A stretch of 64,000 bases of DNA from Candidatus Omnitrophota bacterium (GCA_017992455.1 JAGOOP010000001.1:123723-187722), one strand, 5' to 3'; counted from the stretch's first letter, positions 2,958-47,291 are shown. The notes: generated by a model from the sequence alone, not told the origin. Program-made: numbers and translations.

Positions 2958-4397
2958 TTAAGGAAACCGCCAGTAGGCCCAGGGGATCCTGATCAGAAGG
3001 CTGTTAAGACGGAGCAGAGAAAGGATAAGGAATTCGCTCATAGAAGCGAAACTATATGCAATATAAGGACATAGAAAGCTTGATACGATAAGGCCCGCAC
3101 CGCATAGAGTGATCAGCGATGCGATCACCGGTATGAATATATTAGCGAGCACGGTAACAGGAGCGATGATCCTGAAATAATACGCTATGAATCCCGCTGT
3201 GCCGAGCCACGCGGACAGGGAAACAACGCTCAATTGAGCGGTCCAGCGCAGCGGCCTGAAAGGGATCCTGCTTGTCTTGAGCAGGCCGGCAACAACAGGC
3301 GATAATAAGCCGACCGCTGCGACAGCGGCAAACGACAATTGAAAACTCGCATTGAACAGCTGCCGCGGGTCGAACGCCAGGATGCTGAACGCTGAAAGGC
3401 TCAATGCCTGCGATATGGACGGATCCCTGCGCACATACCAGCTTAAGAATAAAAAAATACCCATGATCGTTGCCCTGACCACCGGAGGCGACGCTCCGGT
3501 CATTAAACAATAGAGGATAAGAACCGGGACGATAATGATCAGCCGCGCATAACGGGGAATGCGCATGATCTTCAAAACGAGGGCGCAGGCGCCGGCAATA
3601 ACGCCGACATTGAACCCGCTGACCACGAGAATATGCACGGTCCCCGACCTGATCATGTCATTATAGATGACGCGGGGAACCCCGGCCTTGTCTCCCAGGA
3701 GCATCGCGTTCATGATCCCGGCTGCCGGCGGCGGCATATACCGATCAACAATATCCTGGGCGCGTTGTTTTACGCGCAGGCATACCGCGACCATTCCGGG
3801 CCGGTTGTCAGGGGCAAGAATGCGTATTCGATGCACTGATCTGACCTTTAATACGGCATATATCCCCCGGTCCCTCAGCCGGTCCCGTATGCTCGTGCGG
3901 CCGGATGAGCGGAAACGCGACGGCAAACCCAGCATTCCCGTTGCTTCAACGCACGTACCGTGTTCGAGGAAAACCGCTCCATCCGTAACAACGCGAATGA
4001 CGCCGCTGCAACCGTATGAATACGAATTGATGATCACGCGGTCGGTTTTCAAATCGAATACGGTGCGAGAACCTGCCGTTCCGGTTTCTCCTCCAACACG
4101 ACCGCGGACAACGCACGGACCGCCCATTGCCTTAAACACAAGATGCCTGATATGATCTGCCGGGCATGTATTCGCATTGACCATGCATGCGGCGCCGCAG
4201 AAAAAAAGCGCGCATGACAAAAAAAAGCGGCTGAAAAATACTGCAGGCGCTTTCTCTGTCATCCGCATCGCGATCGCGCTCATTACGCAGCACGCTGCAG
4301 CGATACACCAGGCATAATAAAAAGGAACAGGGAACTGCCGGGCGCATACGATGCCCAGGCTGAAATACAGCGCGATCCAGGCGAACGGATTTTTCAT
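2958..4397 (-). CDS. comEC: ComEC/Rec2 family DNA internalisation channel (no C-terminal metallo-beta-lactamase domain)
   Basis: 479-aa polytopic membrane protein with a DUF4131-like N-terminus and a competence domain (LLGDKAGVPRVIYNDMIRSGTVHILVVSGFNVG). It lies directly downstream of comEA. Confidence 0.8.
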   Translation of the reverse strand: MKNPFAWIALYFSLGIVCARQFPVPFYYAWCIAAACCVMSAIAMRMTEKAPAVFFSRFFLSCALFFCGAACMVNANTCPADHIRHLVFKAMGGPCVVRGRVGGETGTAGSRTVFDLKTDRVIINSYSYGCSGVIRVVTDGAVFLEHGTCVEATGMLGLPSRFRSSGRTSIRDRLRDRGIYAVLKVRSVHRIRILAPDNRPGMVAVCLRVKQRAQDIVDRYMPPPAAGIMNAMLLGDKAGVPRVIYNDMIRSGTVHILVVSGFNVGVIAGACALVLKIMRIPRYARLIIIVPVLILYCLMTGASPPVVRATIMGIFLFLSWYVRRDPSISQALSLSAFSILAFDPRQLFNASFQLSFAAVAAVGLLSPVVAGLLKTSRIPFRPLRWTAQLSVVSLSAWLGTAGFIAYYFRIIAPVTVLANIFIPVIASLITLCGAGLIVSSFLCPYIAYSFASMSEFLILSLLRLNSLLIRIPWAYWRFP

Positions 4398-17571: not shown

Positions 17572-17657
17572 CGCCGAGGTGGCGAAATGGCAGACGCGTC
17601 GGTCTCAAAAACCGATAGGGTTACACCTATGAGGGTTCAACTCCCTCCCTCGGCACC
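17572..17657 (+). tRNA. tRNA-Leu (anticodon CAA), long variable arm, CCA encoded
   Basis: The acceptor GCCGAGG pairs with CCTCGGC, the anticodon loop is CT-CAA-AA, the variable arm is TAGGGTTACACCTAT and the T arm is GAGGG-TTCAACT-CCCTC. The last 7 nt, GGCACCA, are the att core of the adjacent element. Confidence 0.9.
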
Positions 17658-17763
17658 AAATTGAACGGTTGACCCCAAAGGCTCTGTCCCTCGGGACAGA
17701 GCGCCAAAATTCGCGTTTTCGGCGAAAATTCGGCGGGGCAAATTCAAGTATAGGTGAACTTCG
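17651..17763. repeat. Inverted repeat A, left copy (113 bp)
   Basis: It is the reverse complement of 19275-19387, with one mismatch (17748 against 19290). It starts with the tRNA 3' end GGCACCA and contains the internal palindrome CTCTGTCCCTCGGGACAGAG. Confidence 0.95.
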
Positions 17764-17869
17764 TAAGGAGTTCACCTATTTCTTTTTCGGCGTCCTCAGT
17801 CAAAATTCTTTTTTTCTCCCTCATGAGGAATCCGCTGGAAACCCGAAAGGCGCAAACCTGGAGGTCGCC

Positions 17870-19477
17870 ATGAAATGCGCCGTGTACGTGCGGGTTTCCA
17901 CCGAAGAACAAGCCAAAGCGGGTTACTCTCTCGCCGCCCAGACAGATAAGATAATTGAGTTTATACGCAACAAAGGCTGGACGCACACCGAAATTTATTG
18001 CGATGACGGCTACTCTGCCGCGACGCGGCGGCGGCCAGCACTTGAGCGTTTGCTGGCCGATTCAACGGCGCGGCAGTTTGACGCCGTCCTGGTGTATAAG
18101 ATCGACCGCTTCTCGCGCAACCTCAAAGACCTGCTCGATATTGTCGAACAATTGAGCAAGAACGCCGTCGGCTTCAAGTCGATAACCGAATTGATCGATA
18201 CCACCACCCCTGAAGGCCGCCTCATGTTCCACCAGTTCGGCTCATTCGCGCAATATGAGCGCGAACTGATCGCCCAACGCGTAATGCTTGGACTGCGTAA
18301 AAGATTCCAGTCCGGCATGTGGGTAAGCGGCGTAGCTCCCTTCGGCTACAAGCAAAAGAACGGAAAACTTGAACTTGTTGATAAAGAGGCGGCCGTCGTC
18401 AAGACCATGTTCGACCTCTACACCCAAAAGAACCTCGGCGTGATAAATATCGCCCGTTACTTAAATAACGCGGGACTACGGACACGGGCCGGAAATATGT
18501 GGAAGCCGACGGTCATTCACCACATTATCACAAATCCGACTTACACAGGTTGCATAATACGCGGCGGCGAGAGAGTAACCGGGGCTCACAAACCCATTGT
18601 TAAAGAGGAAACATTTAACCGTATAAAAGAGCTCCTTCCTACTCGCAAAGCGAAAACCCGCGTGTTTGTGAGCCCCAACCTCTTCACCGGGTTCATATTC
18701 TGCGGCTGCGGCGCTCCCATGCACATGATTTATCCAGGACTGCCAAATAAGATTCGTTATAAATACTATGCCTGCTCCCGGCGCATAGCCTATAAAGACT
18801 GCAAAACCGAATATCTACGCCAGGACATCTTAGAAACCAGTGTTTTAGATCAGCTAAACAAGCTTGCCACTGATAAACCAAGACTGACCGCGATAATAAC
18901 CCTTCTTAAAAACCAGAACAACAAGCTTTTACCTGGCTTGCGCCGCAGCCGCCTGGAGCTGTCGCAAAATATCAGCGGTCTGACACAGCAAAAAAACGGG
19001 TTATTAAAATGGATGAGCGCAAAAGAAGCAAAACCTTATACGCTGAACGTACTCAATGAGAAATTCGAGAAGATCGAGCTTGAACTAAACGAATTAACGC
19101 ACAAGTTGTGGCAGACCGACGAGGAATTGAGTAAGAGGTCGCGCTTTGGCTTGTCTTCGGAGAAAGTCGCCTTGTGGCTTAAGCAAGTGATCAAGACTTA
19201 CGCGGATTCCGACCGGCAGGAGAAAAAAAGAATTTTGTCTGAGGTTTTGGAAAAGATCACAGTAAAATCAAAAGACGAAGTTCACCTATTCTTGAATTTG
19301 CCCCGCCGAATTTTCGCCGAAAACGCGAATTTTGGCGCTCTGTCCCGAGGGACAGAGCCTTTGGGGTCAACCGTTCAATTTGGTGCCCTTCGTCTGAAGA
19401 ATACCCAAAAGGCTGTTTGTCAATTAACCTACTCGATTCAATCCTACTACCAAAAGAAAGATCAGTCAAGAGAATAG
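17870..19477 (+). CDS. Large serine recombinase (resolvase domain, recombinase domain, zinc ribbon, coiled coil)
   Basis: The ATG at 17870 follows a GGAGG Shine-Dalgarno. The protein reads MKCAVYVRVSTEEQAKAGYSL...VLVYKIDRFSRN..., then CGCGAPMH...YYACSRRIAYKDCK as the zinc ribbon, then a long coiled coil. The last 68 codons lie inside the inverted repeats. The TTG-started N-terminal extension in the ORF track (17669) is repeat DNA. Confidence 0.9.
   Translation: MKCAVYVRVSTEEQAKAGYSLAAQTDKIIEFIRNKGWTHTEIYCDDGYSAATRRRPALERLLADSTARQFDAVLVYKIDRFSRNLKDLLDIVEQLSKNAVGFKSITELIDTTTPEGRLMFHQFGSFAQYERELIAQRVMLGLRKRFQSGMWVSGVAPFGYKQKNGKLELVDKEAAVVKTMFDLYTQKNLGVINIARYLNNAGLRTRAGNMWKPTVIHHIITNPTYTGCIIRGGERVTGAHKPIVKEETFNRIKELLPTRKAKTRVFVSPNLFTGFIFCGCGAPMHMIYPGLPNKIRYKYYACSRRIAYKDCKTEYLRQDILETSVLDQLNKLATDKPRLTAIITLLKNQNNKLLPGLRRSRLELSQNISGLTQQKNGLLKWMSAKEAKPYTLNVLNEKFEKIELELNELTHKLWQTDEELSKRSRFGLSSEKVALWLKQVIKTYADSDRQEKKRILSEVLEKITVKSKDEVHLFLNLPRRIFAENANFGALSRGTEPLGSTVQFGALRLKNTQKAVCQLTYSIQSYYQKKDQSRE
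19275..19387. repeat. Inverted repeat A, right copy (113 bp)
   Basis: It is the reverse complement of 17651-17763 (112/113) and lies inside the 3' end of the recombinase gene. Confidence 0.95.
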
Positions 19478-19779
19478 GCCCCGCCCGCTTGGCCGCGGGC
19501 TTCGTTGTGCCGGTGGCGTCGCTTCGCCCCGCGTGACGCGGGGCTGCGCTGGACGGCCGCTTAGGTCAGCGGCCTGGAGCTAATGCAGTCCGGGCTCGGC
19601 TCGGCTGCGGCTGGGGCTGGGTGGGGGCAGCCCCAGCCGCGCGTCCTCTCGCACCGCTGTTAAATCCCCCAGGTCGTACGCTGTGCCGCAATTAACAAAT
19701 AGAAAAACTCGGCGGTGCGGCACGCCGAGCCTCTTGGTGGATAGGTTTGAAAAGTCGCTAAGTAAACCTACACCCCGAT
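19381..19779. repeat. Inverted repeat B, left copy (399 bp)
   Basis: It is the exact reverse complement of 22528-22926, checked block by block by eye. It begins with TGGTGCC, which is shared with repeat A. Confidence 0.95.
19702..19729 (-). terminator. Rho-independent terminator inside repeat B, facing out of the cargo segment (mirror copy on the + strand at 22578-22605)
   Basis: The minus strand reads CUCGGCG-UGCCGCAC-CGCCGAG followed by UUUUUC, about 100 nt downstream of the last cargo gene. Confidence 0.6.
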
Positions 19780-19830
19780 AACACTGTTATTTTTTTAAGG
19801 GGGCACCTTTTAAGGATGCCCCCTTTCGAA

Positions 19831-20262
19831 CTATCTGTATTTTACGAATTTGGTATTCCCAAGCTCGTAATAATAGTACCAAACTTCCGAAACATTAACG
19901 TTATGTTTTGATATGAGACGCAATGCTTCGTCACAATACTTGCTTGGTACAATCAACAGAAACTTGATACCTAGGCTTCCATAATCTTTCCATTGTTCCG
20001 CTTCTGAATCAGAAACAGACTCAGCGGTTTCAATTTCTTCAATTATGACAGCCGTACCTCTAGCCGAACCTAATGAATCAGGCAGCCATACTACAACATC
20101 AGGATAACGCGGATTAGACGCAGGTCCTACAAATTGATTCTTCTCCCCACCAGGATTAGTGCTCACTTTGTAACCCTTGCGTTGCATTTCTCCATAAGTC
20201 GCAGCTGACGCACTGACTATTCTATCATGCTCGGATTCTTCCAGGGTTGTACGAATAGCCAT
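19831..20262 (-). CDS. Hypothetical 143-aa alpha/beta protein; possible PD-(D/E)xK-like fold (weak)
   Basis: Start MAIRTTLEE at 20262, after a strong AGGAGGT Shine-Dalgarno. YPDVVVW...AVIIEEIET resembles a nuclease core without the canonical Lys. An RLISKH (Rx4H) string lies near the C-terminus. I recognise no family for it. Confidence 0.5.
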   Translation of the reverse strand: MAIRTTLEESEHDRIVSASAATYGEMQRKGYKVSTNPGGEKNQFVGPASNPRYPDVVVWLPDSLGSARGTAVIIEEIETAESVSDSEAEQWKDYGSLGIKFLLIVPSKYCDEALRLISKHNVNVSEVWYYYYELGNTKFVKYR

Positions 20263-20457
20263 TATTTTTTGGTATACCTCCTTCCTAAAATTTCTGTGGG
20301 GAAGTTGCCAAAAGTATTGACTTTTCACCTCCTTAGGATATACTAATGACAACGGCACTAACACAGATATTTAGTGTCCCAAGGGTGGATAAAAGGCCCC
20401 CAAGCCAAACTTTATCCGCCCTTTTTCTTTTATTCAAAGACCATCAGTAGTTAGTTA

Positions 20458-21096
20458 TCAAACCAAGAATTTATTTAGCTCATTTACTAATATATGTACG
20501 GTCGTAGAAGGTCTTCTGACGCTAGCGGGATGAGTAGCTATGTAACCAGATAGAAGTCGCGAGGCATTTCTTATTCCATCCCCCTGTTTGTTTAGAATAA
20601 GCTGGTAGATTTCAGTACTGTTTTTCTCGTAAGGCTTACCTAAAAGTGCGCTTAACCTGGTAATATATTCCGATCGTTTTGAGGCAGTTTGATGATATTG
20701 GAAGTGTAACAAGTACCATAACTCAAAACACTCATTAGAATAAGCCACTTTGATATCATGTTTTTTTGCCAACGCAATAGCCTTTTCAAAGTTATCATCA
20801 GGATTATCATCTTTATCAAATACACACCAAATTTGATCAAACTTTATACCGTATGTTGCAGCATCTTTCTTGTACTTTATAGTCTTTTCTACAAGAGACA
20901 CTGTATTATCTCCCGGCCCAAAGATTTCGTCTTTTACTTGAGAGGAAGTTAACCGAAAACTGTTAAAATAATTAGGCTCAGTTTTCTCCCCTTCACAGAC
21001 AATTAAGAAAGTTTCTCTAACTGTCCTGACGGCAACTTGCCTTTTAGCGATTCTTGACTGTTTTCTTTTCCAAAACGCGGCGTCCGGTTCTTTCAT
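20458..21096 (-). CDS. RloB-like (Toprim-related) protein, AbiLii-type
   Basis: The N-terminal FLIVCEGEKTEPNYF motif is characteristic of RloB-like proteins, followed by WCVFDKDD. Its start is in an ATGA overlap with the upstream ATPase stop. Confidence 0.75.
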   Translation of the reverse strand: MKEPDAAFWKRKQSRIAKRQVAVRTVRETFLIVCEGEKTEPNYFNSFRLTSSQVKDEIFGPGDNTVSLVEKTIKYKKDAATYGIKFDQIWCVFDKDDNPDDNFEKAIALAKKHDIKVAYSNECFELWYLLHFQYHQTASKRSEYITRLSALLGKPYEKNSTEIYQLILNKQGDGIRNASRLLSGYIATHPASVRRPSTTVHILVNELNKFLV

Positions 21097-22346
21097 TTTC
21101 TAAAAAGCGAGTTGTCTCCTCTAATAAAAGGAATAGCTCCATATTTGCCTGCAATGTAGTCTTTCTCAAAAGAAGCATCATTTCTAACTTTATATTCTGC
21201 CAAAGAATATAAATCAGTCGCCCCATATTTATTTTTTTCTGTTAGCCATATTTGATCTCTGCGGAAAATGCTTCTATTAAAAAGATTGGTATTGTGAGAA
21301 GCAAAAACTAATTGAGCATTCTTGGGGTTATTCTCAAGAGAATTAAATAATGTTATAAGAAATTTTATTAAAATAGGGTGGAGTTTCGCGTCAAGCTCAT
21401 CAACTACTATTATGCTCCCATTCTTAAGAGTGTCTAGAAAAGGCCCGGAAAGAGCAAAGAATTTCTTAGTGCCTTCGGATTCCTCTATCCCCAAATCAAA
21501 TTTAACCGAGGATATTGGCTTGTTTTCGTTATCAAATTTTGAGTGCAAAGTTTGGATGCTAACATTGAAAACTTGTCCCTCTGGGCCAAATTTTGCTTTT
21601 TCCTTTTCAGACATATCCTCATACTTTAACTGCGTTTCCTCTAAATTAATATCCTCGATTCCTAAATCGGCTTCTTTGAGAAATCTGAGAACATTTTTCC
21701 TGAATTCCTCATCCTTGATTCTTTCAAGAGTGAACGGAACAAGCCTTACGTCTATCAGCGTAGATATAATATGGAGGTTTTTCCCAAACCAATTTAAGAT
21801 CTCTTTTGAAATCTCGCCATTCCATTGAGCAACAACCGATAAGAAGAGCGCATTAGGTCTAGTTATTTTCTCCTTTCCTTTGCCTTCTTTAAAATGCGTT
21901 CCGATTTGAAAGTTGTCCCCTTCTCTTACGAAAAGTTGAGTTTCTTTTCTAATCGGAACGCTAAAAAGCCATTCTCGTACTACCTTTTCTCTATCAACCT
22001 GAAAACCATATCTATACCTTGTTTCTTTATGAATAAAAACTACTTCGAAAAGAGATGGTTTATCATCTGTTTCAGCACTCAATTTAAAGTTTGTGACATT
22101 AATTCTTCCCTTATCTTGGGTAGAAGTTAAAACAAATTTTTTCATAAACCTCATTGCTCTAATCAAATTACTTTTCCCACTTGCGTTGGCTCCATAAATA
22201 ACTGCACTCTTCAATAACCTTAATTTATTGTTAGCTATAAATAGATTTGTATCCGCATGTTCTTTCTTAGCGGAAGCAACCATGCTGAAAGTTACAATAT
22301 CTTTAAAAGATAAGAAATTCCCTACACTAAATTCAATTATCATCAT
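21093..22346 (-). CDS. AAA15/AAA21-type ABC ATPase (AbiLi / AriA / OLD-ATPase class)
   Basis: Walker A is GANASGKSN, the signature-like motif is ESEGTKKF, Walker B is IIVVDELDAKLHP and the H-loop is FASHN. The N-terminus MIIEFSVGNFLSFKD is typical of the family. Confidence 0.85.
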   Translation of the reverse strand: MMIIEFSVGNFLSFKDIVTFSMVASAKKEHADTNLFIANNKLRLLKSAVIYGANASGKSNLIRAMRFMKKFVLTSTQDKGRINVTNFKLSAETDDKPSLFEVVFIHKETRYRYGFQVDREKVVREWLFSVPIRKETQLFVREGDNFQIGTHFKEGKGKEKITRPNALFLSVVAQWNGEISKEILNWFGKNLHIISTLIDVRLVPFTLERIKDEEFRKNVLRFLKEADLGIEDINLEETQLKYEDMSEKEKAKFGPEGQVFNVSIQTLHSKFDNENKPISSVKFDLGIEESEGTKKFFALSGPFLDTLKNGSIIVVDELDAKLHPILIKFLITLFNSLENNPKNAQLVFASHNTNLFNRSIFRRDQIWLTEKNKYGATDLYSLAEYKVRNDASFEKDYIAGKYGAIPFIRGDNSLFRK

Positions 22347-22426
22347 TATCTCCTGGGTTACAGTATCTATTAGGCATATTTTTGGACAAAGTCCACAAAT
22401 TACAATCCTATTTTATCCACAAAAGA

Positions 22427-22454
22427 AGTATAACTCAAAAATATAAAATGTCAA
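22427..22454 (-). promoter_or_regulatory. Sigma70-like promoter of the cargo operon
   Basis: The minus strand reads TTGACA (22454-22449)-N16-TATACT (22432-22427). Downstream lies a TGGAC-TTT-GTCCA palindrome (22383-22395) that could be an operator. Confidence 0.55.
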
Positions 22455-22527
22455 GCTTTTTTGTGATATTTACTCAAAAACTAGTTTTATTATTGTAGCA
22501 GCGCCATAATCGAAGTGGTTTCTAGGA

Positions 22528-22926
22528 ATCGGGGTGTAGGTTTACTTAGCGACTTTTCAAACCTATCCACCAAGAGGCTCGGCGTGCCGCACCGCCGAGT
22601 TTTTCTATTTGTTAATTGCGGCACAGCGTACGACCTGGGGGATTTAACAGCGGTGCGAGAGGACGCGCGGCTGGGGCTGCCCCCACCCAGCCCCAGCCGC
22701 AGCCGAGCCGAGCCCGGACTGCATTAGCTCCAGGCCGCTGACCTAAGCGGCCGTCCAGCGCAGCCCCGCGTCACGCGGGGCGAAGCGACGCCACCGGCAC
22801 AACGAAGCCCGCGGCCAAGCGGGCGGGGCCTATTCTCTTGACTGATCTTTCTTTTGGTAGTAGGATTGAATCGAGTAGGTTAATTGACAAACAGCCTTTT
22901 GGGTATTCTTCAGACGAAGGGCACCA
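22528..22926. repeat. Inverted repeat B, right copy (399 bp)
   Basis: It is the exact reverse complement of 19381-19779 and ends in GGGCACCA at the right boundary of the element. Confidence 0.95.
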
Positions 22927-22950
22927 GACTGATAGCCAAAAACATAGAAA

Positions 22951-22987
22951 ACATAGGGACGGTTCTCTTCGAGAACCGTCCCTATGT
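22951..22987. terminator. Bidirectional terminator in the chromosomal flank right of the element
   Basis: A perfect 17-bp stem ACATAGGGACGGTTCTC / GAGAACCGTCCCTATGT with a 3-nt loop and T-rich tracts on both sides. It lies downstream of the minus-strand gene 23023..24072. Confidence 0.7.
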
Positions 22988-22990
22988 TTT

Positions 22991-23016
22991 AAATAATTCT
23001 GACCCCGTTTTTAGCC
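22991..23016. repeat. REP-like element, single copy (AAATAATTCTGACCCCGTTTTTAGCC)
   Basis: The same 26-mer recurs at 24296-24321 and 60846-60871. Its reverse complement recurs at 24265-24290 and 60792-60817, and a partial copy lies at 27990-28011. Confidence 0.85.
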
Positions 23017-23022
23017 TTTTTA

Positions 23023-24072
23023 TCAGTCGTTGATGACGATTGTGCCGTTCTCGCACGAAATACTGTTGATCCGCATGAGATTGAGGCCGTTGGCGGAATT
23101 GGGCACCAGTTCATAAACCACGCCGTCAAGGCTCAGGACAAGCTCGCTCAACTGCTGCGCACTGGGTTCAGAAACCAGGGGCTTTCCGGTCACGATGTCG
23201 AATTCCACGGTCCCGTATTCTCCGTCATAATCGGTGCCTCCCATGCGCAGGGCAGTCCCTCCCTCAAGGACCTCGACGCTCGACAGGTCTCCGGTCCCCT
23301 CATCAAAAAGGGTCAGCGGGAAAATAGTCAATGCATCGGAGGAGGTCGTCACGAGCCCGAACCAGGCTGAATTGTCTGCCCTGACCGCCATCGCATTGGG
23401 CTCAGCCGCCATCACAACGCCTGAAAACTCGCGGTCTCCTGCGGTGAAAGATATTTCCTGGCCCACATACTGCTGGCTGCCGGACCTGACCATGGCGAGG
23501 ACTGCCGGATCAACCCCGCTATAGGTCCATTCCCCCGCGTTATTCGTGTTGATCTGAGGCGCTGTTGCCGGCACGTATCCTGTTGCTGGAATGACCGGCG
23601 AGACTGCCGGGCCCGGAGCAGGAGAAACAGGCGCTGCGGGAGCCGGAGAAACAGGCTGGGCCGATGTTGCAGGAGCTGTTTGCCCCGGCATCTGAAATAC
23701 CTGCGTCTGAACGTGCGCGGTCAGGACCGGCGTTACCATCGCCGCCTGGCGAATGGATATCGCGGGCGCGACTGCGGTCGTGTCCACTGCGTGGAACGTC
23801 TGGATCGCGGGCCTGAACGTATAGGTGTCCGCGAGGGCCGCCATGCGGTCCTGCAGGAAAGTTTCAGAGGTCTGGAACGAAAACTGCGAGAGATCCGGCT
23901 TCTGCCACTGCCCCGCCGTTTCCGAAGACGCATTCATCGTGTGTGACGGAGATTCATACACATAAGAACTGAAATCATAGGCATAGGCTGATGCTGCAAA
24001 AAAAATGCCTGCTGCGCACGCGGCAAAGAACAAAACCGCTGCTGCAGAAGAGGATTTCATCTGACTGCACAT
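23023..24072 (-). CDS. Secreted protein of unknown function with Pro/Ala-rich linker
   Basis: It has a signal peptide (AAVLFFAACAAGIFFAASAYA), a PVSPAPAAPVSPAPGPAVSPVIP linker and a C-terminal region that looks beta-rich. I recognise no family. Confidence 0.6.
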   Translation of the reverse strand: MCSQMKSSSAAAVLFFAACAAGIFFAASAYAYDFSSYVYESPSHTMNASSETAGQWQKPDLSQFSFQTSETFLQDRMAALADTYTFRPAIQTFHAVDTTAVAPAISIRQAAMVTPVLTAHVQTQVFQMPGQTAPATSAQPVSPAPAAPVSPAPGPAVSPVIPATGYVPATAPQINTNNAGEWTYSGVDPAVLAMVRSGSQQYVGQEISFTAGDREFSGVVMAAEPNAMAVRADNSAWFGLVTTSSDALTIFPLTLFDEGTGDLSSVEVLEGGTALRMGGTDYDGEYGTVEFDIVTGKPLVSEPSAQQLSELVLSLDGVVYELVPNSANGLNLMRINSISCENGTIVIND

Positions 24073-24162: not shown

Positions 24163-24264
24163 CTGATTCATGTCTGCGCTGAATGTGCGATATACTTTAT
24201 AAAGATAGCACATGCCAGACGTTTTTTCAAGGTCGGGAATAAAAATATTTTTGAATTACACCAA

Positions 24265-24321
24265 GGGCTAAAAACGGGGTCAGAATTATTTATTAAATAA
24301 TTCTGACCCCGTTTTTAGCCC
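24265..24321. repeat. REP-like element, head-to-head pair forming a 57-bp palindrome
   Basis: GGGCTAAAAACGGGGTCAGAATTATTTATTAAATAATTCTGACCCCGTTTTTAGCCC, immediately after the stop codon of the SGNH gene. Confidence 0.9.
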
Positions 24322-24990
24322 TTATTCTTTTTTGAATTTGGTCAGCAGGGCGTTCTGGTTCAAATATGGCAGGATGGCGCGATAGACCCGCTGCGCGATA
24401 AGCCGGTAGCCGTGCTCATTGGGATGAAAATAATCGCTTTTCATGCTGGCTTTGTCGAAAATGCCGTTGAGCAGGTTCGGAATATAGATCGTCCCGTATT
24501 GCCGGCTGAGCGACTGGAAAATCGGGCCGTAGTCAGACATGAGATGCATATTGCTGACATCGACCAACGCCACGATCGCTCCCTGCTTCTGGCATTGCTG
24601 TATGATCGATTCGATATTGCGCCGCGTATCTTCGAGGGCTATTTTGGTAAGGAAATCGTTTGCTCCGAACTCGACAACTACCAGAAGCGGTTCCCGGTCA
24701 AGGACGTCGGGCCTGATCCGCTTCAAAGCTCCTTCGGAGGTATCTCCTTCAATGCCGGCATTCACGACCGGGATGGACGTCAGTTTGGAAAGATACGCCG
24801 GATAGGAAGATTTCGGGCCTGCGCCGAACCCCTGGGTCAGGGAATCGCCGAAACATACGATATATTTACCCGAAGAATCTATGTTCACGATATCGCTGCG
24901 CATGCACCCTGATATGCACAGGATACCGGCGATGCCCGGGACGATCAAACTCCTGGATAAGATACGGCCGTAATGAATAACCATTTCCAT
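24322..24990 (-). CDS. SGNH/GDSL hydrolase lipoprotein (TesA/arylesterase-like)
   Basis: Lipobox CISGC. The SGNH blocks are FGDSLTQG, VEFGANDF and DYFHPNEHGY. The start is uncertain (24990 or 25020). Confidence 0.8.
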   Translation of the reverse strand: MEMVIHYGRILSRSLIVPGIAGILCISGCMRSDIVNIDSSGKYIVCFGDSLTQGFGAGPKSSYPAYLSKLTSIPVVNAGIEGDTSEGALKRIRPDVLDREPLLVVVEFGANDFLTKIALEDTRRNIESIIQQCQKQGAIVALVDVSNMHLMSDYGPIFQSLSRQYGTIYIPNLLNGIFDKASMKSDYFHPNEHGYRLIAQRVYRAILPYLNQNALLTKFKKE

Positions 24991-41578: not shown

Positions 41579-44367
41579 ATACGCTTTTTACCGAATATTT
41601 CTTTAAGGATAACGCGGGCTATATGCTCGGCCAAAAACCGGTTTCCTTTTTCCGTGCAATGGCCGAAGTCCCCGGCGAACTTATCGCGAAAAATTTCCTT
41701 GAACCCTTCCGAAGCTATTATTTTTTCAAAAACGGCCCTGTTATCGATAAAAATAATATTCTTGTCGTTCTTGAATATTTTCTTTAACGGAGTTATATCG
41801 CGAAGGGGATATTGCATGCAGATCATCGGAATGCCCCGCTTGTCGAGGATCTGCTTAAACGCACGGTAGTTATGAATAAAAGCGCCCTTGGAATCCTCCA
41901 ATCTCAACCTATCCGCCTTTTGAGCATACTGCTTTGCCAGCGCCGGTTTCTTAAGCTCAGCGTATAATGCCGAAAGGGCCCCGCAGGCGCGCTCATTCCG
42001 GGGATTCAGAACAACGGCTTGCTTTAAAATATCTTCCGCCCGGGCAAAATCGCCTTGTTCGCTATAAAAAGATCCCAATCCGCAATAAGCGCTATCGTTC
42101 AGGGGATTTAAGGCAATGGCTTTCCGGAATGCGCTCTCAATAATATCGAACGGTCTTTGTCGTTCGTACAAGATCCATCCCCATACGGCATAGGCCCAAT
42201 CGTTCTCAGGATTCAGCTCTATTGCTTTCTGAACAAACGTTTCGGCCTGCTCCAGTCTGCCGAGTTCGTGATAAAGCCATCCCAGTTCCGTATACGCCAG
42301 ATCGTTCTGAGCATCAATTTCCAGGGCCTTCTGAACAAACGCTTCGGCCCGGACGTATTCGCCCCGCTCCCGATAACACCCTGCAAGTTCGACATACGCA
42401 TTATCGTTTTTCGGATTCAACCGCAATGCTTCTTTGAGCATGGCTTCCGCCTCGAAGACTTTGCCCTGTTCCCGATAACACCCTGCAAGTTCGACATGCG
42501 CATTATCGTTTTTCGGATTCAACCGCAATGCTTCTTTGAGCATGGCTTCTGCCTGAGCGACTCGACGCTGGCTACGATACATAATCCCCAGGCCGGAATA
42601 TGCGCCGTCGCTGCGGGGGTTTATCTCCAACGCTTTTCTAAACGATATTTCCGCGCGGTCGTATTGCCCTTGTTTGAGGCACAAAGACCCCAGACCGGAA
42701 TATGCGCCGTCGCTGCGGGGGTTTATCTCCAACGCTTTCCGGAAGGATCGTTCCGCCTTGTCGAATGAACTCTGATCGTGATACACAAGGCCGAGCTCCA
42801 TGTGCACGGCATCCATAAGCGGGTTTATCTCAAGGGCCCGTTTGCACGCGTCTTCTGCGCGGGCGTAATCGCCTTGTGCGCGATAGATCCCCGCTAACCA
42901 GAAGTATGCGTTTTCATTCAGGGAATCTGAGTTTAACGCTCGCTTCGTAACCGCTAGTGCCCGGGCAAAATCCCCTCGCTCGCGATACAACGCCCCTAAT
43001 GCAAAGCACGCCGTATCGTTCTGAGGGGATATTTCCAATACCGCCTGAAAAGCTTTTTCGGCCTCGTCGAATCTGTCCTGGAGACGATACGCCTCTCCCA
43101 GTCCTATATACGCCTGGTCATTGCGCGGATCCATCTCCAGCGCTTTCCGGAAGGATCGTTCCGCCTTGTCGAACGAGCTCTGATCGCGATACAAAAAGCC
43201 GAGCTCAAGATATGCCTCTGCCTTACGCGGATTGATCTCTACCGCCTTCGTAAAAAACTTCTCTGCTTCCGCGTCCCTGCCCTTGCCGCGGCACACGACC
43301 CCCGATCCGAAATACGCCTGATCATTGCGCGGATTCATCTCCGCCGCCTTTCTAAACGATATTTCCGCGCGGCCGTACTGCCTCTGTTCGAGGTACAGAG
43401 ACCCCAGGCCGGAATATGCGCCGTCGTTGCGGGGGTTTATCTCCAACGCTTTTCTAAACGATATTTCCGCGCGGCCGTACTGCCTTTGTTCGAGGTACAG
43501 AAACCCCAGGCCGGAATATGCGCCGTCGTTGCGGGGGTTTATCTCCAACGCTTTTCTAAACGATATTTCCGCGCGGCCGTACTGCCTCTGTTCGAGGTAC
43601 GAAAACCCAAGACAGGAATATGCGCCGTCGTTGCGGGGGTTTGTCTCCAACGCTTTTCGAAAGGATATTTCCGCCTGTGTAAAATCGCCCCGCCGCTGAT
43701 GTTCAAAAGCCCGTGCGATATATGCGTTATCGTCATGGGGGACGGGTTCGATAGCCTGCGTGCACGGAACCGCTGGCTGCGACAATACACAAAGCTCCTG
43801 CGGAGAATCAGGCGCGGCCGGCAGCCCCTTGCCCTTATCGCGTTTTCTTCCGTCGTCTCTCGTCCTGAAAGATCCGATCGCCTTCAGTTTCCGATCAACA
43901 TGCGGCCAGAGAGATCTCGCTATTTTATACGTTCTCATCGAGGTAAAAAAACGGATGATCCCCGGCAGATCAGCTTTGGCGTTCAGAACATCCGCCCCCG
44001 AATCATTTATTCCCATCATTACGATTACCAGATCGGGACGGTATATATCAAGATATGCTTCAACGCTATTGAGAATTCCCGCGCTCGTTGCAGCCGCATT
44101 GCCCTTATCGATAACGGCAAAACGCACGCCGATATCATGCTGGTTCAAAATTTCTTCCAGGATCGGGGGATACTGGTTCTGGGTCGTCGATTCACCGAGA
44201 CAAAGGATACGATAATCGCCCCTTTGTTTCAACGTCTGCCTGTTCCTGTATTCCTGGAGATAAAAAACAGCTTTCCCTTCTATTCGCAATCCGATCTCCA
44301 GAAATACCGCGGCTAACGACACGATCAGAGCCAGTTTCCTGAAATAGATCCCATAAGGACGCTTCAT
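41572..44367 (-). CDS. TM-anchored SGNH hydrolase-like protein split by a ~20-unit TPR array (paralog 1)
   Basis: Likely start MKRPYGIYF at 44367. The SGNH blocks are CLGESTT (I), IDKGNAAAT (II) and MMGINDSG (III), then the TPR repeats, then FAGDFGHCT (V, DxxH). Confidence 0.8.
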   Translation of the reverse strand: MKRPYGIYFRKLALIVSLAAVFLEIGLRIEGKAVFYLQEYRNRQTLKQRGDYRILCLGESTTQNQYPPILEEILNQHDIGVRFAVIDKGNAAATSAGILNSVEAYLDIYRPDLVIVMMGINDSGADVLNAKADLPGIIRFFTSMRTYKIARSLWPHVDRKLKAIGSFRTRDDGRKRDKGKGLPAAPDSPQELCVLSQPAVPCTQAIEPVPHDDNAYIARAFEHQRRGDFTQAEISFRKALETNPRNDGAYSCLGFSYLEQRQYGRAEISFRKALEINPRNDGAYSGLGFLYLEQRQYGRAEISFRKALEINPRNDGAYSGLGSLYLEQRQYGRAEISFRKAAEMNPRNDQAYFGSGVVCRGKGRDAEAEKFFTKAVEINPRKAEAYLELGFLYRDQSSFDKAERSFRKALEMDPRNDQAYIGLGEAYRLQDRFDEAEKAFQAVLEISPQNDTACFALGALYRERGDFARALAVTKRALNSDSLNENAYFWLAGIYRAQGDYARAEDACKRALEINPLMDAVHMELGLVYHDQSSFDKAERSFRKALEINPRSDGAYSGLGSLCLKQGQYDRAEISFRKALEINPRSDGAYSGLGIMYRSQRRVAQAEAMLKEALRLNPKNDNAHVELAGCYREQGKVFEAEAMLKEALRLNPKNDNAYVELAGCYRERGEYVRAEAFVQKALEIDAQNDLAYTELGWLYHELGRLEQAETFVQKAIELNPENDWAYAVWGWILYERQRPFDIIESAFRKAIALNPLNDSAYCGLGSFYSEQGDFARAEDILKQAVVLNPRNERACGALSALYAELKKPALAKQYAQKADRLRLEDSKGAFIHNYRAFKQILDKRGIPMICMQYPLRDITPLKKIFKNDKNIIFIDNRAVFEKIIASEGFKEIFRDKFAGDFGHCTEKGNRFLAEHIARVILKEIFGKKRIY
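42369..42572. repeat. Two near-identical 102-bp tandem units (TPR-coding)
   Basis: The units begin with CCCGATAACACCCTGCAAG at 42369 and 42471. A further 102-bp-spaced pair starts at 42613 and 42715. Confidence 0.9.
43327..43734. repeat. Four tandem 102-bp units (34-aa TPR period), three near-identical
   Basis: The units start at 43327, 43429, 43531 and 43633 (GCGGGGGTTTATCTCCAACGCTTTTCTAAACGATATTTCCGCGCGGCCGTACTGCC...). They encode RAEISFRKALEINPRNDGAYSGLG.LYLEQRQYG. Confidence 0.9.
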
Positions 44368-44404
44368 TGTCGGTTTTTTCTTTCTGCGTGCATTGTTGAG
44401 CGTA

Positions 44405-47282: not shown

Positions 47283-47291
47283 GGTCCCGTG

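What the first reader, a model, noticed from the sequence alone, without database searches (positions are those of the whole stretch)
19831..22454. Defence-type cargo: ABC ATPase plus RloB/Toprim-like pair with an extra unknown 143-aa gene
Seen:
- A 417-aa ATPase with Walker A GANASGKSN, Walker B IVVDELD and H-loop ASHN.
- It is translationally coupled (ATGA overlap at 21093-21096) to a 212-aa protein with the RloB-type FLIVCEGEKTEPNYF motif.
- Both lie behind a consensus-like promoter (TTGACA-N16-TATACT) with a TGGAC-TTT-GTCCA palindrome.

Established knowledge: ATPase plus RloB/Toprim pairs are the AbiL type, and more broadly the PARIS/OLD/Gabija class of anti-phage systems.

New element: a third gene follows after a 195-nt spacer. 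It has its own strong AGGAGGT Shine-Dalgarno and encodes an alpha/beta protein. It has a PD...EEIET string (a possible degenerate PD-(D/E)xK nuclease) and an Rx4H string. It may be an additional effector, an immunity or regulator component, or an unrelated passenger.
Basis: partly seen in the sequence, partly recalled or inferred. Interest (0 to 1): 0.55.

Follow-up and report, generated by a model that had tools for sequence, protein, structure and literature searches.

The report
AbiL defence pair plus unrelated nuclease module
The first two genes are an ordinary AbiL-type anti-phage pair (ABC ATPase plus RloB/Toprim nuclease), while the third gene is a separate, self-contained 0.6-kb module: an unannotated nuclease-like protein with its own conserved small-RNA and leader region.

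Summary
Genes 1 and 2 (21093-22346 and 20458-21096, minus strand) are a canonical AbiL pair. PADLOC scores them AbiLi 3.7e-105 and AbiLii 6e-32, Pfam scores AAA_21 and RloB 2e-47, and they share an ATGA overlap.

The 143-aa third gene is not an AbiL component.
- About 30 independent loci carry a homologue, and none has AbiL.
- The neighbours there are HigBA-like, Panacea and ImmA/IrrE pairs, a DpnII restriction-modification system, or a LexA-like gene.
- The nearest plasmid AbiL pair has unrelated downstream genes.
- Only window 19820-20434 is shared between loci, so gene plus spacer travel as one 0.6-kb unit.

The protein models confidently (pLDDT 91) as an alpha-beta-beta-beta-alpha-beta fold resembling PD-(D/E)xK nucleases. 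Its invariant residues include H12, D13, D55, E76 and E78. It matches no Pfam, PADLOC, PHROG or NCBIfam family.

The spacer carries, on the opposite strand, a conserved promoter, two co-varying hairpins and a T-run. These predict an ~81-nt small RNA with no Rfam match. The sense leader folds to occlude the SD and AUG. My guess at function is an antisense-controlled nuclease, type I toxin-antitoxin-like. This is untested.

The cassette lies between perfect 392-nt inverted repeats, inside a 5.3-kb large-serine-recombinase island in tRNA-Leu. That island has an unusual and recurring architecture.

The parts
17573..17658 (+). tRNA-Leu(CAA). Its last 7 nt, GGCACCA (17652-17658), are the crossover core of attL.
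   Evidence: ARAGORN; three-site alignment.
17659..17764 (+). P arm. It is the reverse complement of 19275-19380, with 1 mismatch. It is an inverted copy of part of the recombinase's own 3' coding region, placed upstream of the recombinase gene.
   Evidence: Repeat I2.
17870..19477 (+). Large serine recombinase with Resolvase, Recombinase and Zn_ribbon_recom domains. It is CcrB-like. Its conserved C-terminal tail is encoded across the internal attP.
   Evidence: Pfam and NCBIfam. Homologues at 52-96% identity conserve the tail.
19381..19387 (-). Core of an intact attP (Q-core-P) in inverted orientation, lying inside the recombinase gene (codons of 'FGAL').
   Evidence: The symmetric arms CCTTTTGGGT / ACCCCAAAGG centred on the core were read directly from the sequence.
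19388..19779 (-). Left copy of the Q arm, a perfect inverted repeat of 22528-22919. It contains the last 29 recombinase codons and a terminator at 19703-19734 that faces transcription leaving the cassette.
   Evidence: Repeat I1; terminator scan. Independent contigs L006 and L007 reach into it from the cassette.
19831..20262 (-). Third gene: a 143-aa protein with a PD-(D/E)xK-like fold and invariant residues including H12, D13, D55, E76 and E78. Its family is unannotated.
   Evidence: No hit in Pfam, PADLOC, NCBIfam or PHROGs.
20263..20434 (-). Conserved leader of the third gene. It is shared as DNA with 9 other loci whose upstream genes are unrelated. Its 3' half folds to occlude the SD and AUG.
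20317..20344 (+). Promoter TTGACT-N16-TATACT, antisense to the third gene. In 10 loci the -35 box (consensus TTGAC) has four of five bases invariant and the -10 box (consensus TATACT) has its two A's and final T invariant.
20351..20431 (+). Predicted ~81-nt small RNA. Hairpin A is at 20354-20378 (loop CACAGAUAU), hairpin B at 20381-20423, and a U-run at 20424-20431 (intrinsic terminator).
   Evidence: Covariation: 96.2% of cells paired, 10 of 21 pairs compensatory, 0 of 500 shuffles as good. G-U asymmetry favours the + strand. MFE is -28.8 kcal/mol. No Rfam family.
20458..21096 (-). AbiLii: an RloB-family Toprim protein, 212 aa, with an intact CEGEKTE glutamate motif and DKDD.
   Evidence: Pfam RloB 2e-47; PADLOC AbiLii 6e-32; 38% identity to an annotated RloB protein.
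21093..22346 (-). AbiLi: an ABC-type (AAA_21) ATPase, 417 aa, with intact Walker A, Walker B and H-loop.
   Evidence: PADLOC AbiLi 3.7e-105; Pfam AAA_21 1.1e-40; motifs.
22383..22454 (-). abiL promoter TTGACA-N16-TATACT (22454-22427) and the TGGAC-TTT-GTCCA palindrome (22383-22395) in the 5' leader.
22528..22919 (+). Right copy of the Q arm, with a terminator at 22573-22604 that faces transcription leaving the cassette.
22920..22926 (+). attR core GGCACCA. It is followed by native chromosomal flank that carries the displaced tRNA-Leu terminator hairpin (22948-22990).

Best explanation
The region is a mosaic cargo cassette (19780-22527, 31-43% G+C in a 54% G+C genome). It sits inside a 5,268-bp island (17659-22926) that a large serine recombinase inserted into the 3' end of tRNA-Leu(CAA) of a Candidatus Omnitrophica genome. 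The cassette holds two independent modules.

(1) A canonical two-gene AbiL system.
- Shown: family membership, operon structure, and intact ATPase and Toprim motifs.
- Inferred by analogy with PARIS and OLD/Gabija: the ABC ATPase AbiLi senses a phage cue and licenses the RloB/Toprim nuclease AbiLii to cut nucleic acid (tRNA or DNA), which aborts the infection.

(2) A self-contained ~0.6-kb module (19820-20434).
- Shown: it consists of the 143-aa gene plus a ~170-nt conserved control region, and it moves between genomes independently of AbiL. It is always found in toxin-antitoxin, restriction-modification or Abi neighbourhoods.
- Shown as a prediction: the protein has a restriction-endonuclease-like fold with an invariant D55...E76-x-E78 acidic cluster plus H12/D13.
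- Shown: on the strand opposite the gene, the control region has a conserved sigma-70 promoter, two co-varying hairpins and a U-run.
- Inferred: this makes an ~81-nt RNA that is antisense to the 5' part of any transcript entering the gene from upstream, here by read-through from abiL.
- Shown as a prediction: the 3' half of the sense leader folds so that the SD and AUG are buried.
- Inferred, about 30% likely: the protein is a DNA- or RNA-cutting toxin or effector kept silent by the leader fold and the antisense RNA. That would make it a type I toxin-antitoxin-like addiction or defence module that hitch-hikes at the 3' end of other defence operons.
For: AbiL:
- HMMs; overlap and motifs; homologous annotated ATPase+RloB pairs on 155 plasmids.
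- PMC11464382 places AbiL with the ABC-ATPase/Toprim systems.

Independence of the third gene:
- Gene neighbourhoods.
- tblastn of AbiLi and AbiLii against all 43 loci fetched via the third gene and its homologues hits only L006 and L007, which are identical copies of this cassette.
- The homology block is limited to 19820-20434.
- G+C is 0.42 for the third gene against 0.34-0.37 for abiL.
- The gene after the Emticicia AbiL pair is unrelated.

Fold:
- pLDDT 90.9 with alpha-beta-beta-beta-alpha-beta order.
- PDB hits SfsA, EndA, YaeQ, BsmI, Can2.
- BFVD hits MmcB-like, endonuclease I, VRR-NUC, Holliday-junction resolvase, Cas4.
- Invariant residues.
- 710 cluster representatives, some with basic Ala/Lys/Pro tails.

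Small RNA and leader:
-.

Island:
-.
Against: - There is no expression data. The small RNA, its ends and its strand are predictions from 10 sequences, of which 5 are close relatives.
- No sigma-70-like promoter for the third gene is found on its own strand. How it is transcribed is therefore inferred.
- Fold matches are weak (TM 0.44-0.59, E about 1e-3 to 2e-4). The canonical lysine of (D/E)xK is a glutamate.
- Family members at or below 61% identity lack the RNA element. It is therefore not essential to the protein's function.
- Toxicity is unsupported by any data. Classical type I toxins are small hydrophobic peptides, which this protein is not.
- The AbiL mechanism is by analogy only.
Confidence: 0.7

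Rival explanations
1. The three genes form one system: a three-component AbiL variant in which the 143-aa nuclease-like protein is a second effector, an immunity factor or a regulator of the ATPase/RloB pair.
For: The three genes are co-oriented and no strong sense-strand terminator lies between RloB and the third gene. Hairpin B has a U-run only on the other strand, so co-transcription is plausible. All three lie inside the same inverted-repeat-bounded cassette.
Against: None of about 30 independent homologue loci has AbiL. The closest annotated AbiL pair lacks this gene. Inter-locus homology stops exactly between RloB and the spacer. G+C differs. PADLOC has no model for the protein.
Confidence: 0.06
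2. The conserved spacer is only a sense-strand cis-regulatory leader (attenuator, thermosensor or riboswitch-like) of the third gene. The plus-strand 'promoter' and 'terminator' are incidental, and no small RNA is made.
For: Hairpins are complementary on both strands. The sense leader's 3' half folds stably over the SD and AUG (z down to -4.5). The CAGA motif pair co-varies in a way that also fits an intramolecular loop-loop contact in the sense RNA, and L003 pairs by G-U only on the sense strand. In L001 a strong sense promoter sits just upstream of the whole element.
Against: G-U pairs in the two hairpins favour the plus strand: 19 against 5, with 2-3 extra valid pairs in 5 of 7 loci. The T-run follows hairpin B only on the plus strand. 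In 10 diverged loci the -35 box (consensus TTGAC) has four of five bases invariant, the -10 box (consensus TATACT) has its two A's and final T invariant, and both keep the correct 16-17-nt spacing.
Confidence: 0.2
3. The 143-aa protein is not a toxin or effector nuclease. It is a benign DNA-binding or repair-type protein, or an anti-defence factor, and is simply common in variable islands.
For: Distant relatives are widespread (710 clusters). Some carry histone-like basic tails that suggest chromosomal DNA binding. Many relatives lack the RNA control region. The catalytic lysine is missing.
Against: H12, D13, D55, E76 and E78 are invariant across the aligned family members, down to 40% identity, and E11 is nearly so. 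This pattern is typical of a metal-dependent active site. Occlusion of the SD and AUG plus a putative antisense RNA is the kind of tight control seen for harmful genes. Neighbours are almost always toxin-antitoxin, restriction-modification or Abi genes.
Confidence: 0.25
4. The inverted repeats around the cassette and the recombinase gene are assembly artefacts of a short-read MAG. The true locus would be a simple island.
For: The Q arms are 100% identical over 392 nt, which is longer than a typical k-mer. Contigs from other runs break at the repeat edges.
Against: The two P arms differ by one base, so they are physically distinct copies. Both cassette ends join the same 30-mer in an independent Logan assembly (L006), and L007 reads from the cassette 298 nt into the Q arm. 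The same recombinase-flanking repeat, 162 nt long with a different sequence, occurs in an independent JGI assembly with a 65%-identical recombinase. It is also implied by the ORF of P0178.
Confidence: 0.05

Closest known systems
AbiL (AbiLi/AbiLii) abortive-infection system of Lactococcus lactis plasmid pND861, as modelled in PADLOC and DefenseFinder
   Same: Two overlapping genes: an AAA_21/ABC ATPase followed by an RloB-family Toprim protein. The AbiLi and AbiLii HMMs give the best hits (3.7e-105 and 6e-32). Catalytic motifs are intact.
   Different: The host is an uncultured Omnitrophica bacterium. The proteins are at most about 45% and 38% identical to the nearest annotated plasmid homologues. 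No phenotype is known. The biochemical mechanism of AbiL itself is not established (stated from my own knowledge).
PARIS (AriA/AriB), OLD and Gabija: the ABC-ATPase plus Toprim defence superfamily (PMC11464382)
   Same: The same ATPase clade (AAA_15/21; PADLOC AriA 3.2e-39, GajA 1e-8) partnered with a Toprim nuclease. This is the likely working model: the sensor ATPase releases or activates the nuclease.
   Different: The nuclease partner is RloB (PF13707), not DUF4435 (AriB) and not a fused Toprim (OLD, GajA). There is no UvrD-like GajB. This is therefore not a member of those families.
RalR/RalA of the E. coli rac prophage: a type I toxin-antitoxin pair with a DNase toxin (PMC4041452). Also SymE/SymR.
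   Same: A non-membrane, nucleic-acid-targeting protein is paired with an adjacent small RNA on a mobile element. The leader structure limits translation.
   Different: No sequence or fold relationship was tested or expected. Here neither toxicity nor RNA-mRNA pairing has been shown. The predicted RNA lies upstream of and antisense to the leader, and overlaps the mRNA only if transcription starts further upstream.
PD-(D/E)xK (restriction-endonuclease-like) nucleases such as SfsA, MmcB-like proteins, VRR-NUC and endonuclease I
   Same: Core alpha-beta-beta-beta-alpha-beta topology. An acidic residue follows Pro at the start of strand 2, and an ExE sits at the end of strand 3. These are the best structural matches in PDB and BFVD.
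   Different: Matches are weak (TM 0.44-0.59). No sequence-profile match to any Pfam family. Lysine is replaced by glutamate (BamHI-like, from memory). Stand-alone at 143 aa.
Large-serine-recombinase integrative elements (SCCmec Ccr, phage serine integrases). For the repeat layout: the Hin invertible segment and the yeast 2-micron circle.
   Same: The recombinase has Resolvase, Recombinase and Zn-ribbon domains. A short common core (GGCACCA) sits at attL and attR in a tRNA gene. The attP has symmetric arms. As with Hin, the recombinase gene lies between inverted repeats. As with 2-micron, the excised circle would carry two long inverted repeats, each holding a recombination site.
   Different: An intact attP sits inside the recombinase's own 3' coding end, in inverted orientation, in the integrated state. 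The arms are duplicated over 106 nt and 392 nt. I did not find this layout described, but the literature search was limited.

Membership tests
AbiL | AbiLi-type ABC/AAA_21 ATPase | tested here: met
   PADLOC AbiLi 3.7e-105 over residues 1-412; Pfam AAA_21 1.1e-40. Walker A, Walker B and H-loop are present.
AbiL | AbiLii-type RloB/Toprim protein | tested here: met
   Pfam RloB 2e-47, full length; PADLOC AbiLii 6e-32. The CEGEKTE and DKDD motifs are conserved against an annotated RloB protein.
AbiL | The two genes are adjacent, co-oriented and form one operon | tested here: met
   ATGA overlap at 21093-21096 and a single upstream promoter.
AbiL | Abortive-infection phenotype against phage | not testable with these tools
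   Needs phage challenge in a heterologous host.
AbiL, as a three-gene variant | The third gene is conserved next to ATPase/RloB pairs | tested here: not met
   Zero of about 30 independent homologue loci have AbiL (and the neighbourhood calls). The Emticicia AbiL pair has an unrelated downstream gene.
PARIS | AriB DUF4435 Toprim partner | tested here: not met
   The partner matches RloB only. There is no AriB or DUF4435 hit.
Gabija / OLD | ATPase fused to Toprim in one protein (and a UvrD-like GajB for Gabija) | tested here: not met
   The ATPase and Toprim are separate proteins. No helicase gene lies in the cassette.
PD-(D/E)xK nuclease superfamily (third protein) | alpha-beta-beta-beta-alpha-beta core fold | tested here: met
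   AlphaFold2 model with pLDDT 90.9. Elements in order: H2-28, E32-35, E56-61, E69-77, H85-95, E100-106.
PD-(D/E)xK nuclease superfamily (third protein) | Significant structural or sequence similarity to established members | tested here: inconclusive
PD-(D/E)xK nuclease superfamily (third protein) | Catalytic D...(D/E)xK motif | tested here: inconclusive
   D55, E76 and E78 are invariant, but the third position is Glu, not Lys.
Type I toxin-antitoxin | A small RNA gene next to, and on the opposite strand from, the protein gene | tested here: met
   The promoter, two co-varying hairpins and a U-run are conserved in 10 loci. This is a prediction only.
Type I toxin-antitoxin | The RNA base-pairs with the toxin mRNA | tested here: inconclusive
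   Full complementarity exists only if the mRNA starts upstream of 20431. That is so for read-through from abiL, and for the promoter in L001. No own-strand promoter was found.
Type I toxin-antitoxin | Small hydrophobic toxic peptide | tested here: not met
   The protein is a 143-aa soluble alpha/beta protein. RalR and SymE are known exceptions (PMC4041452).
Type I toxin-antitoxin | Toxicity of the protein and its neutralisation by the RNA | not testable with these tools
   Needs expression experiments.
Large-serine-recombinase integrative element | A large serine recombinase plus attL and attR that share a short core at a defined attB | tested here: met
   Domains. Core GGCACCA lies at 17652-17658 and 22920-22926. 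The tRNA-Leu 3' end is restored and the displaced tRNA terminator sits at 22948-22990.

The most novel reading that the evidence does not exclude
The 143-aa gene and its control region would be a new kind of mobile 0.6-kb addiction or defence module. In this reading a PD-(D/E)xK-type nuclease toxin is held off by a cis-encoded ~81-nt antisense RNA and a self-occluding leader, making it a type I toxin-antitoxin-like system with an enzymatic toxin. The module spreads by recombining onto the 3' ends of unrelated toxin-antitoxin, restriction-modification and Abi operons. In addition, the carrier island would represent an undescribed serine-recombinase element design. In that design the attP lies within the recombinase's own coding end and is duplicated as long perfect inverted repeats, giving invertible recombinase and cargo segments and a 2-micron-like excised circle.
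Probability: 0.3. Interest if true: 0.65.

Novelty: new member of a known kind. Interest (0 to 1): 0.4.

Why it matters
The AbiL pair only adds a distant member, from the candidate phylum Omnitrophica, to a known defence family.

Two things could matter beyond that.

First, the third gene. It belongs to an unannotated nuclease-like family (710 sequence clusters, no Pfam model). One clade of that family carries a conserved small RNA and structured leader that are absent from Rfam. That clade always sits in defence or toxin-antitoxin neighbourhoods. It is therefore a concrete, testable candidate for a new RNA-controlled toxin or defence gene. It is also a warning against reading every gene behind a defence pair as a new component of that system.

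Second, the carrier island. A serine-recombinase gene is bracketed by perfect inverted repeats that start at the att core, and the layout recurs in diverged elements. This could bear on how such recombinases keep an intact gene after integration, or how they invert cargo.

Tried and rejected
- Third gene as an AbiL component: rejected on neighbourhood evidence from both sides.
- Known family for the third protein: no hit in Pfam, PADLOC, NCBIfam or PHROGs. A profile search against PDB sequences found nothing. No relatives in the plasmid, phage or IMG/VR collections. Long relatives have no Pfam domains either.
- Known RNA family for the spacer: none in Rfam at E<=10 apart from a chance L20-leader match at E 1.1.
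- RNA element in distant family members or elsewhere in the window: not found by nhmmer or the covariance model.
- Type III toxin-antitoxin: no tandem repeats upstream.
- Homing-endonuclease-type insertion: the upstream genes are unrelated to each other, so there is no common target.
- A conserved small upstream partner protein: the 104-115-aa upstream ORFs are not homologous to each other.
- A peptide encoded by the plus-strand RNA: the 34-codon ORF in the window is not kept in other loci, which differ by indels and stops (read).
- The 177-aa GTG start: not conserved.
- A conserved own-strand sigma-70 promoter for the third gene: none found.
- The serine recombinase or its attP in IMG/VR: nothing.
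- Synteny between the window and L044 beyond the tRNA and recombinase: none.
- Literature search for the inverted-repeat recombinase layout: found nothing specific.


Full report
OBSERVATION

The minus strand of 19831-22454 carries three ORFs exactly as described.
- A 417-aa ATPase lies at 21093-22346. It has GANASGKS at residue 52, IVVDELD at 313 and ASHN at 349.
- It overlaps a 212-aa protein (20458-21096) by ATGA. That protein carries FLIVCEGEKTEPNYF at residue 30.
- After a 195-nt spacer comes a 143-aa ORF (20262-19831).

The promoter TTGACA-N16-TATACT (22454-22427) is the best sigma-70 match in the region, at 11 of 12 positions. The number of promoter-like sites overall is not above shuffled expectation. 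The 5+5 palindrome at 22383-22395 is of a size expected by chance.

The PD...EEIET string is conserved: Y53, P54, D55, E76, E78 and T79 are invariant.

GENES 1 AND 2 ARE AbiL

- PADLOC gives AbiLi 3.7e-105 and AbiLii 6e-32. AriA (3e-39) and GajA (1e-8) score far weaker.
- Pfam gives AAA_21 1.1e-40 and RloB 2e-47 over the full domain.
- Homologous ATPase genes occur on 155 plasmids. The closest, on Emticicia pEMTOL01, is annotated as an ATP-binding protein followed by an RloB family protein. Identities are 45% for the ATPase and 38% for RloB, and the Toprim CEGExTEP and DKDD motifs are conserved.
- The PARIS paper (PMC11464382) places AbiL among AAA15/21 ABC-ATPase plus Toprim systems, together with OLD, Gabija and PARIS.

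Membership in AbiL is therefore met on every sequence criterion. Membership in PARIS fails because there is no DUF4435 partner. Membership in Gabija/OLD fails because the ATPase and Toprim are not fused and there is no helicase.

The mechanism is inferred by analogy only: the ATPase senses infection and licenses the Toprim nuclease.

THE THIRD GENE IS NOT PART OF AbiL

I looked up or fetched the DNA around homologues in about 30 independent loci. The neighbours are:
- a divergent LexA-like gene (L001);
- a HigB-like plus HTH_3 pair inserted between recG and rsmD (L003);
- DUF1451, DUF2188 and a patatin gene (L004);
- an HTH plus Peptidase_M78 pair (L008);
- an HTH-SocA_Panacea antitoxin plus a RelE-like 115-aa protein (L011-L015);
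- an MqsA-like HTH, an M78-like protein and a GIY-YIG-like 104-aa protein (L016, L042);
- DNA methyltransferases (L017);
- a DpnII restriction-modification system (L041).

A tblastn search with AbiLi and AbiLii against all fetched loci hits only L006 and L007, which are identical copies of this same cassette from other sequencing runs, plus the Emticicia plasmid control. From the other direction, the gene after the Emticicia AbiL pair is unrelated (hhalign probability 0.3%). The immediately upstream ORFs of the different loci are not homologous to each other.

At the DNA level, only window 19820-20434 is shared with other loci, at 68-84% identity. The homology stops between the RloB stop codon and the spacer. 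G+C also steps: 0.34 for the ATPase, 0.37 for RloB and 0.42 for the third gene, against 0.53-0.55 for the chromosome.

The third gene is a separately acquired module.

WHAT THE THIRD PROTEIN IS

It has no hit in Pfam, PADLOC, NCBIfam or PHROGs. A family profile finds nothing in PDB sequences. It is absent from the plasmid, phage and IMG/VR collections.

A profile search of 1.84 billion cluster representatives finds 710 clusters at E<=1e-3.
- Most are stand-alone proteins of 110-165 aa.
- The longer ones have no Pfam domain. The ones I inspected carry Ala/Lys/Pro-rich basic tails that suggest DNA binding.

AlphaFold2 with the family alignment gives pLDDT 90.9 and the element order alpha1-beta1-beta2-beta3-alpha2-beta4-alpha3-beta5-beta6. 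D55 follows P54 at the start of beta2. E76-x-E78 lies at the end of beta3. E11, H12 and D13 are in alpha1.

Foldseek finds only weak but consistent matches to restriction-endonuclease-fold proteins.
- In PDB: SfsA (E 9.5e-4), tRNA-splicing endonuclease, YaeQ, BsmI, Can2 and MUS81.
- In BFVD: MmcB-like (E 2.4e-4), endonuclease I, VRR-NUC, Holliday-junction resolvase and Cas4.

I read it as a divergent PD-(D/E)xK-type enzyme in which the lysine is replaced by glutamate. BamHI is a precedent for this, from my own memory. Nuclease activity is inferred, not shown.

THE 'SPACER' IS A CONSERVED RNA AND CONTROL ELEMENT

Ten distinct loci keep about 170 nt upstream of the gene: the window, L001, L003, L008, L011, L016, L020, L041, L042 and L043. 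Their proteins are 60-81% identical and their upstream genes are unrelated.

The alignment read on the window's plus strand shows the following.
- A -35 box (consensus TTGAC) with four of its five bases invariant, and a -10 box (consensus TATACT) with its two A's and final T invariant, 16-17 nt apart. This is the site at 20317-20344 found by the promoter scan.
- An 8-bp hairpin.
- A 13-bp hairpin followed by a T-run.

On the proposed structure, 96.2% of cells pair and 10 of 21 pairs show compensatory changes. None of 500 shuffles reaches this, and slid controls pair at only 43-55%.

The strand can be assigned with some confidence.
- The T-run follows the hairpin only on the plus strand.
- G-U pairs number 19 on the plus strand against 5 on the minus strand, giving 2-3 more valid pairs in five of seven loci.

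The predicted RNA is about 81 nt (20351-20431) with MFE -28.8 kcal/mol. Rfam has no matching family. A covariance model built from the ten loci finds no further copies, neither in the window nor next to distant family members. Family members at or below 61% identity lack the element.

On the sense strand, the 3' half of the leader folds into a long hairpin in 8 of 10 loci. The conserved GUCAAUA box pairs with the AUG region and a CU-rich stretch pairs with the SD. Six of the ten loci have a z-score at or below -3.0 (range -3.0 to -4.5).

The loop motif of hairpin A recurs about 80 nt away, in inverted orientation, in the apical loop of that SD hairpin, and the two copies co-vary: ACAGA/ACAGA, GCAGA/GCAGA and GCAGG/GCAGG. 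One locus keeps the pairing only through a G-U wobble and one breaks it.

No sigma-70-like promoter for the gene lies on its own strand. In L001 a consensus promoter sits just upstream of the whole element. In the window, transcription most likely enters by read-through from abiL. In both cases the small RNA would be fully antisense to the 5' part of the leader.

MECHANISTIC COMMITMENT FOR THE THIRD MODULE

- The module is an autonomous unit: about 85% likely.
- It encodes a metal-dependent nuclease: about 60%.
- An antisense small RNA is made: about 70%.
- It acts as a type I toxin-antitoxin-like addiction or defence module, in which the leader fold and the antisense RNA keep a harmful nuclease silent: about 30%.

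RalR/RalA, a DNase toxin with a small-RNA antitoxin (PMC4041452), is the nearest precedent. Membership of that class is unproven, and the classical criterion of a small hydrophobic peptide is not met.

CONTEXT: THE CASSETTE IS CARGO OF AN UNUSUAL SERINE-RECOMBINASE ISLAND

tRNA-Leu(CAA) ends at 17658. The 7-nt string GGCACCA occurs at three places.
- 17652-17658: tRNA-core-P, which is attL.
- 19381-19387: inverted, Q-core-P, which is an intact attP with symmetric arms CCTTTTGGGT and ACCCCAAAGG around the core.
- 22920-22926: Q-core-R, which is attR.

The R flank carries the displaced tRNA terminator hairpin at 22948-22990. The island is therefore 17659-22926, 5,268 bp.

The recombinase gene (17870-19477; Resolvase, Recombinase and Zn_ribbon domains; CcrB-like) is flanked by the 106-nt P arms, which differ by 1 mismatch. 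The low-G+C cassette is flanked by the perfect 392-nt Q arms. Each Q arm carries a terminator facing transcription that leaves the cassette.

The internal attP lies inside the recombinase's C-terminal coding region. That tail is conserved in homologues at 52-96% identity, so it is native coding sequence.

The same layout recurs in an independent JGI contig whose recombinase is 65% identical. There a 162-nt perfect inverted repeat starts at the GGCACCA of tRNA-Leu and flanks the gene, and the contig breaks just after it. The surrounding genomes are not syntenic. The 602-aa ORF of P0178, whose recombinase is 96% identical, implies a third instance.

An assembly artefact is unlikely. The P copies differ by one base, and independent assemblies support both cassette junctions.

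An excised circle would carry two inverted 505-bp repeats, each containing an attP, which is a 2-micron-like layout. I could not establish why the repeats stay identical, which attP is used, or whether the segments invert.

VERDICT

The defence pair is an ordinary AbiL system in an unusual host. The 'extra component' idea is refuted.

The genuinely new material is twofold:
- the third gene's unannotated family, together with its conserved small RNA and leader;
- outside the given coordinates, the inverted-repeat architecture of the carrier island.

Overall interest is moderate.

Noticed in passing
window 17652-22926 (attL core 17652-17658, inverted attP core 19381-19387, attR core 22920-22926); L044 9805-9966 and 11333-11494: The island is a large-serine-recombinase element in tRNA-Leu. 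The recombinase gene is bracketed by inverted repeats that start exactly at the att core, and an intact attP lies inside the gene's conserved 3' coding end. The cargo is bracketed by a second, perfect 392-nt repeat. The same layout occurs in a contig whose recombinase is 65% identical. I did not find the design described.
   Followed up: partly
window 20263-20434 and the aligned loci L001, L003, L008, L011, L016, L020, L041, L042, L043: An 8-9-nt motif (xCAGAxAU) sits in the loop of hairpin A. It recurs about 80 nt away, in inverted orientation, in the apical loop of the SD-occluding hairpin. The two copies co-vary (ACAGA, GCAGA, GCAGG), which suggests a loop-loop contact or a shared protein-binding site.
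   Followed up: partly
L020 about 950-1010 compared with L011 about 4230-4280: Homology between these two loci extends 17 codons into the 3' end of the upstream gene (…IYYKEKDDIDCD(K/R)KRIL), although the rest of that gene differs. This looks like a recombination mosaic junction just upstream of the mobile module.
   Followed up: no
proteins P0055, P0093, P0121, P0170 (distant relatives of the third protein): Long family members carry Ala/Lys/Pro-rich, histone-H1-like basic C-terminal tails and a conserved N-terminal SPILVRPVREQLEHDR motif. This hints at a chromosomal DNA-binding branch of the family.
   Followed up: no
window 19703-19734 (-) and 22573-22604 (+): Each Q arm contains an intrinsic-terminator-like hairpin facing transcription that leaves the cassette. 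The cargo is therefore transcriptionally insulated on both sides, whichever way it is oriented.
   Followed up: no
window 22983-23019 and 24263-24323: A 30-37-nt palindromic element (AAGGGCTAAAAACGGGGTCAGAATTATTTA) is repeated on both sides of the 349-aa gene at 23023-24072. It may be a REP-like or bidirectional terminator element.
   Followed up: no
window 42034-48296: Long arrays of 102-nt (34-codon) repeats occur in several genes. The period is typical of tetratricopeptide (TPR) repeat proteins.
   Followed up: no
P0178 compared with window 17683-17704 and 19335-19356: The 3-nt loop of the 10-bp palindrome inside the P arm is inverted between this element and its relative with a 96%-identical recombinase (ALSLGTE/ALSRGTE swapped between the N-terminal extension and the C-terminal tail). 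The repeat stays perfect within each element. This resembles a hairpin-loop flip followed by conversion.
   Followed up: no
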